NCBI GenBank assembly: GCA_029856435.1
Contig: JAHQXB010000061.1
Span: 1-17,406 of the forward strand
Source of the DNA: Candidatus Jordarchaeia archaeon
GTDB lineage: Archaea; Asgardarchaeota; Jordiarchaeia; Jordiarchaeales; Jordiarchaeaceae
Direction of reading: 5' to 3'
Length of the DNA stretch: 17,406 nucleotides
Shown here: in pieces, positions 4,663-17,406 of the stretch
Position numbering within the stretch: position 1 is the first letter of the stretch
Layout: the number at the start of each line of letters is the position of its first letter
The notes under the pieces: generated by a model
Databases searched by the model: none
The model's input: the letters and a program-made list of their open reading frames with translations, nothing else
What the model was told of the DNA's origin: nothing
Made by a program: the position numbers and the translations under genes

Positions 4663-5265
4663 ATGAGTGTAGAAGCTTCAAACCATGGTCAAATATCCAA
4701 ACAACCACATATGCTCTATGAAACGATAATACAGGATTACCGAACCATTATTGGAGACGAATTCGACGAAAATTTTGTCGCGGTTCTGGAGCAGCTGTCG
4801 ACAGATTTTGAAACCACCGAGGAGAAGATCGGTGCAGAGACAAACATGCCTTTCAAGGAGATTAGAAAGATTCTCTATAAACTGTATGATTCACGCATAG
4901 CGACCTACAGAATGGTTCGAGACCCCAACACTGGATACATAATATTTCTGTGGAAGCTTCTCCCCCTAAAGTGCAGTTTTGCAACATTTAAGCATAAAGC
5001 CCTGCTCACAATTAAAAGTTTAGAGGAGCGAATCGAATACGAAAAAAGCAATACCTTCTACCATTGCGGTATGAACACCTGTCAGAGGCTCACCTTCGAC
5101 CAAGCCGTAGAAGCAGAGTTCAGATGTCCAACCTGCGCAAAACCTCTACAACTTGTAGACAACCAAGAAACTATAAATATGCTGAGAAAGAAAATCCAGG
5201 AACTAGAAAAAGATATTGAAACCATCTCCAAAAGTCTCTCAGAGAAAGAAACCGCCACTTCCTAA
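4663..5265 (+). CDS. tfe: Archaeal transcription factor E (TFE / TFIIE-alpha homologue)
   Basis: Winged helix with IRKILYKLYD..IATYRMVRDPNTGY...W, linker EERIEYEKSNTFY, Zn ribbon CGMNTC...TFDQA.EAEFRCPTC and the DN..I..L coiled tail. Confidence 0.93.
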   Translation: MSVEASNHGQISKQPHMLYETIIQDYRTIIGDEFDENFVAVLEQLSTDFETTEEKIGAETNMPFKEIRKILYKLYDSRIATYRMVRDPNTGYIIFLWKLLPLKCSFATFKHKALLTIKSLEERIEYEKSNTFYHCGMNTCQRLTFDQAVEAEFRCPTCAKPLQLVDNQETINMLRKKIQELEKDIETISKSLSEKETATS

Positions 5266-5581
5266 TCTCAAAAACAAACCTATTTTTGAGAAATTAAAAG
5301 AGGACGCTTGAGAAGTCTTTTCTCCATTTTTGTGGCACAATTAACTACACTTTTACCTATCCATAGACTGGTTCAGGTCGCGTGGAAACTGATTCAATTA
5401 TGTTCCTTAAAATTTGGCTTTTAGGCTGGAAAAATCCACTTCCAGTCGCAAAAAATAATTATCAAAACAATGCCGCCCACAACTGGGAGATGCTTGTATA
5501 AATTGTGCTTACAGTTGCACCAAATCTTTTTTAAATCCGAACCACCCTTATAATTATTAAAGGAATATTAGGGAGAGAGAA

Positions 5582-12489: not shown

Positions 12490-13905
12490 TTAAATTGGCG
12501 GCTTTTTGTCCCTCCAAGGAAAATTCTTCTCAAAGGCTCGGGAAGCACGAAGCACACCCAACTCGTCGAACCGGTTACCCACAATCTGTAGACCCACAGG
12601 CAGACCTTCCCTAGTATAGCCGCATGGAACAGAGGCCGCAGGTACATAGGTGAAGTTAAAGGGGTAGGTAAACGCTGTCCAACCCGTAGGCCCCACAGGC
12701 TTTCCCGCAATCTCATTGGGTCCCAACCCTACGTCTATCTTGAATGGGGGAACAGCATTTGTTGGAGTCAGAAGAAAATCGTACTTCTCAAAAACCCTTC
12801 TGAGCTGATCCCACAGTTCCTTACGCCGGTACTCAATCTTACAATAGTCCGTGGCCTTTATGTGATCCGCCAGCCAGAGAAAGTCAAGGTATGGCTTATA
12901 ACACACCTTCTTCCATTCTTCCATACGATCTCCCACCGCCGCAACCATATTTGAAATCTCCACACTGACAAAATCCGCCCCCATATCTATGAAATTCAGC
13001 TTTACCTCCTCCACAACGCAGCCCATATCCCTAAAGGAAAAAGCCGCCCTTCTCACAATCTCCTCAACCTCTGGCTCAACTATCGCGTAACCCAAATCAG
13101 GACTGAAAGCAAACTTCTTCCCCTTAATGCCTCTCTCCAGGTTTCCAAGGTAACTCACACCCGGCGGTGGAAGCGAGAGATAGTCCCTACTGTCAGGTCC
13201 CGCCATAACGTCCATCATTAAGGCGGCGTCCTCAACCGTCCGGGTAATGGGGCCTTCCACGGCCAATGTCTCAAATCCAGAGAGCTGAGGCCAACGCGGA
13301 ATACGCCCCAAGTGGGGTTTAAAGCCGAAAATACCGCAAAAACTAGCCGGAGTCCTTAAAGAACCTCCCCAATCATTTCCCACTGCGATGGGACACAAAC
13401 CTGCAGCCACCGCAGCCGCGGAACCCCCACTTGAACCCCCACAAGTCCTAGTTTTATCCCAAGGATTTCTGGTAACTCCAAAAACAGGATTGTCCGTAAT
13501 ACCAATTAACCCGAACTCGGGAAGATTAGTCTTACCCATTATTATAGCACCGGAACTCCTCAGCCTCTCCACGAGAACATAGTCCTCTTTGGGAACATAG
13601 TTCTCGTAAAGCTTTGAACCCCAAGTGGTGCGAACACCCTTAACTGGCATATTATCCTTTACGGCAACCGGAACACCATGCAGGGGGCCCAGCTTCCTGC
13701 GGCTCTTTACCGCCTTCTCTGCGGCTTCAGCTTCCTTTCGGGCATCCTCCTCTGTTAGTGTTACGAAGGCGTTAATTTCTGGATTCACTTTTTCGATTCT
13801 TTTAAAGAAGGCATCAACAACATCAACTGGTGATAATTCGCCATTCTTTATGGCTTTAGAAAGCTCCAAAGCGCCCATCCAAACAATTTCTCCCTCTTTA
13901 ACCAT
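12490..13905 (-). CDS. Amidase-signature (Ser-cisSer-Lys) family amidase, paralogue B
   Basis: GPLHGVPVAVKDN (Lys83), GKTNLPEFG, GGSSGGSAAAVA (Ser158), GNDWGGSLRTPAS (Ser182) and GLPVGLQIVG. Confidence 0.93.
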   Translation of the reverse strand: MVKEGEIVWMGALELSKAIKNGELSPVDVVDAFFKRIEKVNPEINAFVTLTEEDARKEAEAAEKAVKSRRKLGPLHGVPVAVKDNMPVKGVRTTWGSKLYENYVPKEDYVLVERLRSSGAIIMGKTNLPEFGLIGITDNPVFGVTRNPWDKTRTCGGSSGGSAAAVAAGLCPIAVGNDWGGSLRTPASFCGIFGFKPHLGRIPRWPQLSGFETLAVEGPITRTVEDAALMMDVMAGPDSRDYLSLPPPGVSYLGNLERGIKGKKFAFSPDLGYAIVEPEVEEIVRRAAFSFRDMGCVVEEVKLNFIDMGADFVSVEISNMVAAVGDRMEEWKKVCYKPYLDFLWLADHIKATDYCKIEYRRKELWDQLRRVFEKYDFLLTPTNAVPPFKIDVGLGPNEIAGKPVGPTGWTAFTYPFNFTYVPAASVPCGYTREGLPVGLQIVGNRFDELGVLRASRAFEKNFPWRDKKPPI

Positions 13906-15570: not shown

Positions 15571-16986
15571 TTAAATTGGTGGTTTCTTGTCCTGCCAGGG
15601 CAAAACCTTTTCAAAAGCTCTGGATGCTTGAAGCACTCCTAGTTCATCAAAGCGGTTGCCCACAATTTGGAGACCCACTGGAAGCTTGTCCTTAGTGAAA
15701 CCGCAGGGAACCGAGGCTGCAGGTTGACCTGTAAAGTTAAAGGGATAGGTAAAAGCAATCCAGCTCACTGCGCCCACAGGTTTTCCCGCAATTTGGGAGG
15801 GCCCCATCCCCAACTCTAGATTAAAGGCCGGAACAGCGGTTGCGGGAGTCAAAAGGAAGTCATATTTTTCAAAAACTCTCCTGACCTTTTCCCAGAGCTC
15901 TTTCCTGCGATACTGTGTCTTAACGTAGTCGACAGCCTTCAAAGCGTCAGCCAGCCAGAGAAAGTCAAGGTACGGCTTATAGCATACATTCTTCCACTCC
16001 TCTAAACGATCTCCGTAGGCTGCAACTGTTTCTGCAACTACCTGATTCACTAAGTCTCCTTCCATGTTGGGAAAGTCCAGCTTAACCTCCTCCACACCAT
16101 AGCCGGCATCAGCAAAATCGAAAGCCGCCTTTCTAGTAATCTCTAGAACTTCTGGGTCAACCACGGCATATCCTAGGTCAGGGCTGTAGGCGAACTTCTT
16201 TTTCTTGACGCCTTTCTCCAAGTTTTCCAAGTAGCTCACACCAGGTGGGGGCAGTGAGAGATAATCCCTATTGTCGGGGCCAGCCATAACATCCATCATT
16301 AGGGCGGCGTCAGCCACATTTCGGGTAATAGGTCCTTCTGATGCCATTGTTTCCCAGCCTGGTAGAGCCGGCCAACGCGGAATGCGGCCAAGGGAAGGCT
16401 TCAAGCCGAAAACGCCGCAGAGGCTACAGGGAACCCTTATGCTTCCCCCTCCATCGTTGCCCACCGCAATGGGACACATACCCGTGGCCACAGCAGCTGC
16501 GGAGCCGCCACTGGAGCCGCCTGTGGTCTTTGTTCTATCCCAGGGATTCTTGGACGCTCCAAAAAGGGGGTTGTCCGTGATGGGAATTAAGCCGAACTCT
16601 GGAAGATTAGTTTTGCCTAGGATTATTGCCCCAGCGTTTTTTAGCCGCTCCACCAAAACCATGTCTTCCTGCGGAACATAATTCTCGTAGAGTTTGGAGC
16701 CGTATGTGGTGCGGACACCCTTAACTGGAATGTTGTCCTTTATGGCTACCGGTACACCGTGAAGTGGCCCCAGCTTCTTGCGGCTCTTTACCGCCTTCTC
16801 TGCGGCCTCAGCCTCCTTCCGGGCACTTTCCTCGGTTAGGGTGACAAAGGCGTTAATTTCTGGATTAATCTTTTTGATACGATTATAGAAAGCGTCTACA
16901 ACCTCAACTGGTGAAAGCTCTCCCTTCTTTATGGATTTGGCGAGTTCTATGGCACTCATCCAGATGATTTCCTTCTTTTTAGACAT
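15571..16986 (-). CDS. Amidase-signature (Ser-cisSer-Lys) family amidase, paralogue A
   Basis: VAIKDN, GGSSGGSAAAVA and GNDGGGSIRVP; GGAGG RBS at 16997-16993. Gap-free alignment to paralogue B with about 356/471 identities by manual count. Confidence 0.93.
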   Translation of the reverse strand: MSKKKEIIWMSAIELAKSIKKGELSPVEVVDAFYNRIKKINPEINAFVTLTEESARKEAEAAEKAVKSRKKLGPLHGVPVAIKDNIPVKGVRTTYGSKLYENYVPQEDMVLVERLKNAGAIILGKTNLPEFGLIPITDNPLFGASKNPWDRTKTTGGSSGGSAAAVATGMCPIAVGNDGGGSIRVPCSLCGVFGLKPSLGRIPRWPALPGWETMASEGPITRNVADAALMMDVMAGPDNRDYLSLPPPGVSYLENLEKGVKKKKFAYSPDLGYAVVDPEVLEITRKAAFDFADAGYGVEEVKLDFPNMEGDLVNQVVAETVAAYGDRLEEWKNVCYKPYLDFLWLADALKAVDYVKTQYRRKELWEKVRRVFEKYDFLLTPATAVPAFNLELGMGPSQIAGKPVGAVSWIAFTYPFNFTGQPAASVPCGFTKDKLPVGLQIVGNRFDELGVLQASRAFEKVLPWQDKKPPI

Positions 16987-17031
16987 GTGAATCCTCCTTT
17001 TTTGGATGATAGTATAGGAAGAGTTATTGAT

Positions 17032-17212
17032 GTGAACTACCCCGCCCTAACGGACGGGGCTTCCAGCGTTTAGAGTAGGCTTTACGCCCATCTCCTCATC
17101 TGCTGGTTCGGGGGGCTCAGGGCCCCCCATCCCATAGAGCTCGTTACCCTATGGGCTATATTTTTACACACGCATTCAGGTCTCTGTCGTATTTTCTGCA
17201 AGGGAACATTCC
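17032..17212 (-). ncRNA. Putative TnpB omega-RNA (reRNA) scaffold; guide would begin at 17031
   Basis: Stacked stems on the minus strand: CCCATAGGG/CTCTATGGG (17155-17131), GGGGGGC/GCCCCCC (17128-17110), CCAGC...GCTGG enclosing GGC-GTAAA-GCC, then the right-end hairpin. TnpB guide scaffolds are known to overlap the tnpB 3' end and the right end. Expression is not shown. Confidence 0.6.
17082..17208 (-). pseudogene. tnpB: 3' fragment of tnpB (end of Zn finger plus RuvC-III motif), frameshifted
   Basis: GAC AGA GAC CTG AAT GCG (17188-17171) encodes DRDLNA, matching the TnpB DRDxNAxxNI motif. It is preceded by C-S-L-(C)-R-K-Y (one base missing) and followed, after a slip in an A5 run, by NIAHRV...WA* ending at 17082. 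Confidence 0.8.
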
Positions 17213-17235
17213 AAAAACTTTTTAGATTGTAAGAG

Positions 17236-17250
17236 TTATTTAAGTTTAAC
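17236..17250 (-). promoter_or_regulatory. Element-internal BRE/TATA-like sequence (GTTAAAC-TTAAATAA)
   Basis: Sits just inside the left end and points toward the tnpB tail, the right end and the amidase A gene; predicted start near 17212. Confidence 0.45.
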
Positions 17251-17406
17251 CGAATTCATCCCCTCCCTTTCGGAAGGTGTCTTCTTGCGAAGTGTAGATA
17301 AAAATTGTGTTTGTTGACAGTCCACATCTTGAGTGGGGGCTTTTTGCCAGAGGTTTTGTAAGGATTAAGACTTTAAACTAATGAACCAGTCATGGCGACA
17401 TTTGCC

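What the first reader, a model, noticed from the sequence alone, without database searches (positions are those of the whole stretch)
17032..17297. Protein-free IS200/IS605 mini-element reduced to two ends plus an omega-RNA scaffold
Seen: 266 bp with both subterminal hairpins, a TTCAC right terminus, a TTTAT left flank, and only the tnpB tail (CxxC remnant, DRDLNA) that overlaps a richly base-paired region. Known: in IS608/ISDra2-type elements TnpA recognises the end hairpins, and TnpB is guided by an RNA made from the tnpB 3' end and right end plus the flanking DNA. Inference: the deletion removed nearly all coding DNA but kept what is needed for trans-mobilisation and guide production, so this may be a guide-RNA cassette that borrows TnpA and TnpB (or a nuclease-dead TnpB derivative) from elsewhere. 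Predicted guide: ATCAATAACTCTTCCTATAC; predicted TAM: TTTAT.
Basis: partly seen in the sequence, partly recalled or inferred. Interest (0 to 1): 0.75.

Follow-up and report, generated by a model that had tools for sequence, protein, structure and literature searches.

The report
Gene-less IS605 mini-transposon with guide-RNA scaffold
This 266-base stretch is one of at least 11 copies of a protein-free miniature IS200/IS605 transposon (a PATE) in an Asgard archaeon that kept both transposon ends and the scaffold that encodes the TnpB guide RNA in intact relatives; it is a clean example of an already described kind of element, and no working partner nuclease was found in this assembly.

Summary
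Window 17032-17297 (minus strand) is a 266-bp mobile element. Its borders are confirmed to the base by empty sites in three species of the same genus. It sits directly 3' of TTTAT, with no target duplication.

The genome holds at least 11 distinct copies, 95-98% identical. All share one internal deletion junction.

Intact relatives in other archaea are about 1.3-kb tnpB-only (IS1341-type) elements. The mini keeps these parts:
- the left-end hairpin
- a TATA-like box
- the tnpB start codon
- the last 12 tnpB codons
- a 130-nt four-helix scaffold (18 of 36 pairs show compensatory changes)
- the right-end hairpin and the TTCAC terminus

The "CxxC remnant" is a frame artefact across the junction.

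It is a PATE carrying a stand-alone omega-RNA cassette. Papers already describe this kind of element, including the idea that it uses TnpA and TnpB in trans. This scan has also reported gene-less IS200/IS605 minis of this kind at other loci of the same genome.

An intact Y1 TnpA is present. The only matching tnpB here is a pseudogene, but the assembly drops contigs under 5 kb, so absence is not proven. No RNA or activity data exist.

Verdict: a new member of a known kind, of modest interest.

The parts
17298..17302 (-). TTTAT target motif on the left flank. It is the TnpA insertion site and the predicted TAM.
   Evidence: All nine left junctions in G000 read TTTAT. It is present in the uninterrupted empty sites of G001, G003 and G004.
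17032..17297 (-). The whole 266-bp gene-less mini-element (PATE).
   Evidence: Empty sites define both borders. At least 11 distinct copies at 95-98% identity. No ORF of 60 aa or more.
17260..17279 (-). Left-end subterminal hairpin: 8-bp stem with a T:G mismatch and a GAAA loop. This copy has a C-to-A change that weakens the base of the stem.
17236..17243 (-). TATA-like box TTAAATAA, a candidate promoter of the former tnpB and of the guide RNA.
   Evidence: Kept at the same place after the left-end hairpin in the full-length relatives and in the four mini lineages compared. Promoter function is inferred, not shown.
17192..17201 (-). Remnant of the tnpB start codon (TTG CAG AA..) and the deletion junction just after it.
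   Evidence: Alignment to four full-length relatives; similarity ends after TGCAGAA.
17156..17191 (-). Last 12 codons of tnpB (YDRDLNACVKI, then stop), holding the third RuvC aspartate motif. They are out of frame with the start-codon remnant.
17032..17161 (-). Omega-RNA-type scaffold of four helices. The last helix is also the right-end hairpin.
   Evidence: Covariance model R1 scores 147 bits here. 18 of 36 pairs have compensatory changes across 13 relatives.
17040..17059 (-). Right-end subterminal hairpin: 8-bp stem with a T:G mismatch at the same position as in the left end, GTTA loop.
17032..17039 (-). Right terminus TAGTTCAC. The element ends at C 17032.
   Evidence: Similarity among the copies stops here. 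Empty sites agree.
17012..17031 (-). Flank that would be read as the guide (ATCAATAACTCTTCCTATAC). It is part of the leader and promoter region of the amidase gene.
   Evidence: It lies directly after TTTAT in the empty sites of the congeners. Use as a guide is inferred only.
15571..16986 (-). Downstream host gene, an amidase of 471 aa. Its ATG lies 45 nt past the element, on the same strand.
   Evidence: Pfam PF01425, E = 8e-124; ORF list.

Best explanation
The stretch is a PATE (palindrome-associated transposable element). It is a non-autonomous deletion derivative of a tnpB-only IS200/IS605 (IS1341-type) insertion sequence in an Asgard archaeon.

Shown:
- An internal deletion removed tnpB from just after its start codon to its last 12 codons.
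- The resulting 266-bp unit then spread to at least 11 sites.
- It always inserts 3' of TTTAT and never duplicates the target. This is the signature of single-strand 'peel-and-paste' transposition by a Y1 (HUH) TnpA.

Inferred:
- The transposase was supplied in trans. An intact tnpA is present elsewhere in the genome, and its own left end has the same architecture.
- The retained cargo is a promoter-like TATA box plus the complete omega-RNA scaffold. Transcription running out of the right end would give a guide RNA whose last roughly 20 nt match the empty site (TTTAT + ATCAATAACTC..).
- Where a matching TnpB is available in trans, that RNA would direct cutting of emptied or uninserted sites. 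That would favour retention of the mini-element, as published for full-length elements.
- In this assembly the matching tnpB is a pseudogene. This copy also carries small lesions in the left-end stem and in scaffold helix 2. The cassette here is therefore most likely an orphan that is no longer serviced. As a side effect it has split the TATA-like box of the amidase gene.
For: - Exact empty sites in three congeners.
- 21 matches in the genome, all with one junction, many at contig ends.
- TTTAT at every left junction and TTCAC/CTCAC at every right end.
- Matched left-end and right-end hairpins.
- Both ends and the scaffold are homologous to full-length elements with open tnpB frames of 426, 422 and 381 aa in G032, G053 and G026.
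- Scaffold covariation in 18 of 36 pairs.
- Minis in G000, G032, a Bathyarchaeota MAG and metagenome contigs differ in their junctions or internal segments, yet all keep the TATA-like box and the whole scaffold.
- The scaffold core is 92-97% identical to metagenome minis whose ends differ.
- An intact Y1 TnpA with HUH and Tyr motifs lies at C166 and C58, with a homologous left-end layout.
- C23 tnpB is a pseudogene, and there is no other close TnpB.
- The kind of element is defined in PMC3119063, and trans use of its omega-RNA is proposed or shown in PMC10055086 and PMC10691335.
Against: - No RNA data exist, so neither the promoter nor the guide RNA is shown.
- The TnpA present has a different hairpin stem and probably a different target (TTTAC). 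Its ability to move this element is unproven.
- Among the G000 copies the scaffold is not clearly more conserved than the rest: 11.5% against 16% variable columns, p = 0.30. The per-cell count is lower (p = 0.045), but related copies inflate it.
- 'Orphan' rests on a draft assembly with no contig under 5036 bp. A 1.3-kb parent flanked by these repeats would have been dropped.
- The TATA-like box may be kept because it is part of the left end that TnpA needs, not as a promoter.
Confidence: 0.8

Rival explanations
1. Active trans-guide cassette. The copies are transcribed and their omega-RNAs are loaded now by a cognate TnpB that exists in the organism but is missing from the assembly. The minis would then enjoy TnpB-driven homing and retention today.
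For: - The assembly has no contig under 5 kb, and at least nine contig ends break inside this repeat.
- Open-frame TnpBs whose scaffolds are 85-90% identical occur in metagenome contigs, some under the same sample prefix Ga0080004.
- Minis of several lineages all keep the TATA-like box and the scaffold.
- In G032 the minis share an identical scaffold with a tnpB that has an open 426-aa frame.
- Stand-alone omega-RNAs work in trans elsewhere (PMC10691335).
Against: - tblastn and the covariance model find only a tnpB pseudogene of this clade in 3.54 Mb at 97.8% completeness.
- There is no clear excess conservation of the scaffold among the copies.
- This copy has lost the bulged A of helix 2 and one base pair of the left-end stem.
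Confidence: 0.15
2. Host-level regulatory side effect or exaptation. The insert matters mainly because it split the amidase promoter. Its internal promoter, or read-through from the host TATA remnant, would now drive the amidase. Alternatively a nuclease-dead TnpB relative (TldR-like) would use the guide to repress the gene.
For: - The insertion lies inside a TTTTTATA box about 50 nt upstream of the amidase ATG, on the same strand, and the amidase ORF is still intact.
- The guide flank equals the amidase leader.
Against: - No TldR-like or other matching TnpB-family protein was found.
- The other copies have unrelated flanks, and the base after TTTAT follows no common pattern.
- A 76%-identical amidase paralogue lies 3 kb away, so loss of expression could be tolerated.
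- There are no expression data.
Confidence: 0.04
3. Not mobile DNA: a structured 5' leader or riboswitch, or a small RNA gene native to the amidase locus.
For: A strongly folded GC-rich region directly upstream of a gene. A weak sub-threshold similarity to Rfam HgcC.
Against: - The locus is empty in three congeners.
- The same 266 bp lies at at least 11 unrelated sites.
- Both ends are homologous to tnpB elements.
- No Rfam family reaches its threshold.
Confidence: 0.01

Closest known systems
PATEs (palindrome-associated transposable elements), the gene-less IS200/IS605 derivatives first named in Haloquadratum walsbyi (Dyall-Smith et al. 2011, PMC3119063)
   Same: - No terminal inverted repeats, near-terminal palindromes at both ends, no target duplication, too short to code.
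- Derived from an IS1341-type (tnpB) element by core deletion.
- A 'homogeneous' family over 90% identical.
- Copies are themselves hit by other small mobile repeats; here this is seen in the C16 and C78 copies.
   Different: - The host is an Asgard archaeon rather than a haloarchaeon.
- This family keeps the full guide-RNA scaffold and a TATA-like box, whereas some Haloquadratum PATEs are reduced to 52 bp of fused termini.
PATE-like elements of Geobacillus stearothermophilus and stand-alone omega-RNAs of OMEGA systems (Meers et al. 2023, PMC10055086; Altae-Tran et al. 2023, PMC10691335, citing the 2021 OMEGA study)
   Same: Gene-less, mobilised units that encode an omega-RNA and would need both TnpA and TnpB from other elements.
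   Different: In those genomes compatible effectors co-reside, and trans activity was shown for some stand-alone omega-RNAs. Here the only matching tnpB in the assembly is a pseudogene, and nothing has been tested.
IS608 (Helicobacter pylori) and ISDra2 (Deinococcus radiodurans), the model IS200/IS605 elements
   Same: - Insertion 3' of a fixed 4-5-nt motif (TTAC, TTGAT; here TTTAT) without duplication.
- Imperfect subterminal hairpins at both ends.
- In the intact relatives, the omega-RNA runs from the tnpB 3' end plus the right end, with the guide in the flank.
   Different: - The parent lineage carries no tnpA (IS1341-type).
- It is archaeal.
- The scaffold sequence is unrelated and matches no Rfam family.

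Membership tests
PATE / non-autonomous IS200/IS605 element | Subterminal imperfect hairpins at both ends and no terminal inverted repeats | tested here: met
   Left end 17260-17279 and right end 17040-17059. Both have 8-bp stems with a T:G mismatch at the same position. The inverted-repeat scan of 16950-17406 reported no pairs.
PATE / non-autonomous IS200/IS605 element | Insertion 3' of a conserved short motif, without target-site duplication | tested here: met
   TTTAT at nine of nine left junctions. Three empty sites show TTTAT followed directly by the right flank.
PATE / non-autonomous IS200/IS605 element | Too short to code; no transposase or TnpB gene | tested here: met
   No ORF of 60 aa or more in 16987-17406. 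Only a start-codon remnant and 12 terminal codons remain, and they are out of frame.
PATE / non-autonomous IS200/IS605 element | Both ends homologous to those of full-length IS605/IS1341 elements | tested here: met
   Left part 74-83% and right part 72-83% identical to elements with 381-426-aa TnpB frames in G026, G053 and G032, and to the C23 pseudogene element.
PATE / non-autonomous IS200/IS605 element | Mobilised as a unit: several copies sharing the same internal junction | tested here: met
   At least 11 distinct right junctions and nine left junctions, 95-98% identical, with one junction. No full-length copy turned up in the five congeners; the scaffold model gave one weak hit, in G001.
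PATE / non-autonomous IS200/IS605 element | A Y1 (HUH) TnpA available in trans that recognises these ends | tested here: inconclusive
   An intact tnpA lies at C166, with a second, 99%-identical copy truncated at the end of contig C58. Its left end shares the TTCG.CAAG - hairpin - GATGAATTG layout, but the stem differs. Recognition cannot be tested with these tools.
TnpB omega-RNA (OMEGA guide RNA) | Lies at the tnpB 3' end and right end in intact elements | tested here: met
   In G026, G032 and G053, and in metagenome contig L136, the same scaffold overlaps the last codons of an open tnpB frame and runs to the right end.
TnpB omega-RNA (OMEGA guide RNA) | Conserved secondary structure supported by covariation | tested here: met
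   Of 36 consensus pairs, 18 have changes on both sides. Model R1 finds it in 20 of 151 sampled genomes of the phylum.
TnpB omega-RNA (OMEGA guide RNA) | A cognate TnpB encoded in the same genome | tested here: not met
   Only the C23 pseudogene, with several stops and frameshifts. The next nearest TnpB (C43) is 26% identical, and R1 does not hit its 3' end. Caveat: the assembly omits contigs under 5 kb.
TnpB omega-RNA (OMEGA guide RNA) | Transcribed, bound by TnpB, and directs TAM-dependent cleavage | not testable with these tools
   No RNA-seq or biochemistry is available. Only the sequence logic (TTTAT plus flank in the empty site) agrees.
Rfam HgcC family RNA (RF00062) | Score at or above the gathering threshold (50 bits) | tested here: not met
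   18.2 bits, E = 0.063. Nothing reaches gathering thresholds.

The most novel reading that the evidence does not exclude
Gene-less 'promoter + omega-RNA' minis may be a recurrent, selected life form of this archaeal IS1341 lineage: guide-only hyperparasites that exploit both TnpA and TnpB of other elements. They arose separately in several lineages in Asgard genomes, a Bathyarchaeota MAG and metagenome contigs, and their scaffold core stays 92-97% identical while the ends diverge. In this Asgard genome they could still be serviced by an unassembled TnpB, or by another RNA-guided effector. That would give at least 11 dispersed guides, one of them aimed at the amidase promoter.
Probability: 0.12. 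Interest if true: 0.55.

Novelty: new member of a known kind. Interest (0 to 1): 0.3.

Why it matters
The locus is a textbook-quality archaeal example of a PATE. It has base-exact borders, empty sites, a defined parent lineage and a covariation-supported guide scaffold, all in an Asgard archaeon.

It adds comparative support to the published view that the TnpA ends, TnpB and the omega-RNA are separable modules. Minis with different deletion junctions all keep the TATA-like box and the whole scaffold.

It does not reveal a new mechanism.

Practical uses: annotating these repeats avoids calling them novel small RNAs, explains contig breaks in this MAG, and flags a disrupted amidase promoter.

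Tried and rejected
- Rfam at gathering thresholds found nothing. At relaxed thresholds there were only sub-threshold hits: HgcC at 18 bits, HEARO at 11.5 bits, and frameshift-site models hitting the G6/C6 stem. None is evidence.
- The generic inverted-repeat finder missed the hairpins because of their mismatches. They were found by pattern search and folding instead.
- I looked for a parent at 90% identity or more in G000. The best is the C23 element at 75-83% DNA identity, and its tnpB is a pseudogene.
- I tested whether the scaffold is more conserved than the rest among the G000 copies. Variable columns: 11.5% against 16%, p = 0.30. Differing cells: p = 0.045, but shared variants are counted repeatedly. 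This is no usable evidence of selection.
- Three metagenome tnpB elements seemed to share the window's right flank, which suggested the same insertion site. The match is only 12 of 17 bases and the sequences diverge afterwards, so the idea was rejected.
- Metagenome contig L136 has the same length as the window (17406). It is not the same DNA: only the 162-bp scaffold matches.
- I first read the ATG in GGAATGTTCCC as the tnpB start. Alignment to full-length relatives places the start at the following (A/T)TG CAG AAG instead.
- One of my DNA folds (third item) used wrong coordinates and is ignored.

Full report
**What is there**

Read on the minus strand, window 17297 down to 17032 runs in this order:
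- CTACAC..
- a hairpin (CACCTTCC-GAAA-GGGAGGGG)
- GATGAATT
- a TTAAATAA box
- TTG CAG AA
- a short coding tail, YDRDLNACVKI then stop
- about 130 nt of GC-rich stems
- a second hairpin (CCCCGTCC-GTTA-GGGCGGGG)
- TAGTTCAC

TTTAT lies just before the first base. No ORF of 60 aa or more lies in 16987-17406. As RNA the stretch folds far better than shuffles, z = -4.6.

**It is a mobile insert with base-exact borders**

Three genomes of the same genus carry the orthologous amidase locus without the insert. There ..CACAA(T/G)TTTTAT is followed directly by ATCAATAA(C/T)TCTTCCTATAC... The insert is therefore exactly 17032-17297 (266 bp). It went in 3' of TTTAT and duplicated nothing.

**Copy number in this genome**

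- The window's own genome gives 21 matches.
- Aligned with their flanks, they show at least 11 different right junctions and nine different left junctions. Identity is 95-98%, and the internal junction is the same throughout.
- TTTAT is on the left and (T/C)TCAC is the last word on the right in every copy.
- At least nine contig ends stop inside the repeat. The repeat therefore breaks the assembly and the true copy number may be higher.
- BLASTN found no full-length copy in the five congeners. The scaffold model gave only one weak hit among them, in G001. The family therefore probably expanded in this lineage.

**Origin**

Both halves match about 1.3-kb elements that carry only tnpB (IS1341-type):
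- an Odinarchaeota MAG (G026, 381-aa frame)
- a Baldrarchaeota MAG (G053, 422 aa)
- G032 (426 aa)
- a decayed copy in this genome, C23

The proteins carry the Cas12f1-like TNB domain. G026 and G053 are listed as the same phylum as the window. Their record titles name Odin- and Baldrarchaeota. This independently places the window's genome among the Asgard archaea, as earlier notes of this scan had said.

Alignment of the 5' parts shows that the mini follows the parents through three features: the left-end hairpin, a conserved (C/T)TTAAATA box, and GGGATGTTCCC(A/T)TG CAG AA. It departs right after that start codon. Similarity resumes at TAC GAC (A/C)GA GA(C/T) CTG AA. This encodes the YDRDLN of the last RuvC motif (..CPKCGMEYDRDLNACINIAH in a metagenome relative).

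The deletion therefore took out almost exactly the ORF body.

**The scaffold**

Thirteen sequences were aligned: five G000 minis, C23, C141, full-length elements from G026, G032 and G009, and G032 minis. They give a four-helix consensus of 36 pairs. Eighteen of these pairs have changes on both sides that keep the pair.

A covariance model (R1) gave these results:
- It hits the window at 17032-17161 with 147 bits.
- It finds only the minis, C23, C141 and three weak sites in this genome.
- It finds matches in 20 of 151 sampled genomes of the phylum.

No Rfam family reaches threshold.

**Evidence that the cargo is not an accident**

Minis of this lineage arose more than once:
- G032 minis use a different junction. 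Their scaffold is identical to that of the tnpB with an open 426-aa frame in the same genome.
- A Bathyarchaeota MAG has a roughly 270-bp mini with another internal segment.
- Many metagenome contigs hold roughly 290-bp minis with unrelated internal DNA and different end hairpins. Their scaffold core is nevertheless 92-97% identical to the one here.

All of them keep the TATA-like box after the left-end hairpin, and all keep the whole scaffold. This argues for selection on a 'promoter + guide scaffold' cassette somewhere in the history of these elements.

It is not proof for this genome. Among the G000 copies, variable columns are 11.5% in the scaffold against 16% elsewhere (p = 0.30). The per-cell difference (p = 0.045) is inflated by shared ancestry.

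**Partners**

*TnpA.*
- An intact Y1 gene with the HUH motif and the catalytic Tyr lies in C166. A second, 99%-identical copy is truncated at the end of contig C58.
- Its left end has the same layout as the mini: TTCG.CAAG, hairpin, GATGAATTG. The same holds for tnpA elements in G032 and G018.
- The stem differs, however, and its left flank reads TTTAC in both copies. It is a plausible helper, not a demonstrated one.

*TnpB.*
- tblastn with the G026 protein finds one gene of this clade, in C23. It is broken by several stops and frameshifts.
- The best intact TnpB (C43, 431 aa) is 26% identical. R1 does not match its 3' end.

*Caveat.* The shortest contig in the assembly is 5036 bp. A 1.3-kb parent bounded by these repeats would assemble as a short contig and be discarded. 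Open-frame TnpBs with scaffolds 85-90% identical do occur in metagenome contigs, several under the same sample prefix as one another.

**Mechanism**

Shown:
- an internal deletion of a tnpB element
- spread of the deleted unit to many TTTAT sites without duplication
- retention of a covarying scaffold

Inferred from established IS608/ISDra2 biology and from PMC10055086 and PMC10691335:
- TnpA supplied in trans excises and inserts the single-stranded unit through its two hairpins.
- Transcription out of the right end would yield an omega-RNA whose guide equals the flank.
- With a matching TnpB, that RNA would cut TTTAT-flanked empty sites and so favour retention of the mini.

This copy has private changes: C-to-A in the left-end stem, a lost G after the hairpin, and loss of the bulged A in helix 2. 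The matching tnpB in the assembly is dead. I therefore rate the cassette as probably orphaned in this genome (about 0.8), with about 0.15 for current activity through an unassembled TnpB.

**Local consequence**

The insertion sits inside a TTTTTATA motif about 50 nt upstream of the ATG of an intact amidase gene, on the same strand. The likely promoter is split. The gene would now depend on read-through from the element or from the TATA remnant. This is untested. A 76%-identical paralogue lies 3 kb away.

**Comparison with what is known**

The element meets every structural criterion of a PATE as defined in Haloquadratum (PMC3119063). That definition includes derivation from IS1341-type elements by core deletion and being hit by other small repeats.

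[quoted passage not shown] Earlier notes of this scan describe gene-less IS200/IS605 minis of this kind at other places in this genome, and one of them likewise reported finding no matching nuclease gene. I re-derived those points independently. I add the 5-kb assembly caveat, the empty sites for this copy, the corrected junction, and the comparison of several mini lineages.

**Verdict**

This is a new member of a known kind, of modest interest.

Noticed in passing
G000 contig C16:131-260 (a sibling copy of the element); about 100 other matches in the genome: A roughly 105-bp repeat with terminal inverted repeats (GTGATGTAGA.. / ..TCTGCATCAAC) and an apparent 9-bp target duplication (GGGATGAAT) is inserted just after the left-end hairpin of one PATE copy. 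BLAST gives about 100 matches to it in this genome, most at 93-98% identity. This recalls the small mobile repeats that target PATEs in Haloquadratum.
   Followed up: partly
G000 contig C78:411-610 (another sibling copy): A roughly 180-bp repeat with about 13 copies at 90-93% identity is inserted into the PATE just before the tnpB start-codon remnant. It is flanked by a repeated TGTTCCCT.
   Followed up: partly
G000 contig C20:10634-11307: A tnpB tail, scaffold and right end of a related family (hairpin CCCCTTCC-AATA-GGGAGGGG, CAGTTCAC) lies directly behind a LAGLIDADG-type ORF (..LAYIAGFFDGEGSI..).
   Followed up: no
G000 contig C135:6488-6531: A solitary left-end fragment of the family (TTTAT + CTATACTTCGCAAGAAGATCCCTTCCGAAAGGGGGG, 89% identical) is followed by unrelated ORFs. 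No scaffold or right end was found on the rest of this contig, which ends about 650 bp further on.
   Followed up: no
window 17018-17156, minus strand: A sub-threshold match to Rfam HgcC (18 bits against a gathering score of 50) runs through the right-end hairpin. This raises the possibility that HgcC RNAs of hyperthermophilic archaea are themselves TnpB guide scaffolds. Not tested.
   Followed up: no
window 16987-17031 and 17298-17310: The insertion splits a TTTTTATA motif that is intact in three congeners about 50 nt upstream of the amidase ATG. The amidase gene (15571-16986) is still an intact ORF and has a 76%-identical paralogue at 12490-13905.
   Followed up: partly
G000 contigs C136:41-312 and C174:1-83: Two contigs carry the same right junction, including the same private variants of the element. 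This is either the same locus assembled twice or a recent segmental duplication.
   Followed up: no
L082 (WUQV01000256.1, labelled Bathyarchaeota MAG) 5239-5507: A roughly 270-bp mini at a TTTAT site has a right half 91% identical to the Asgard mini. This means either transfer between archaeal phyla or a mis-binned contig.
   Followed up: partly
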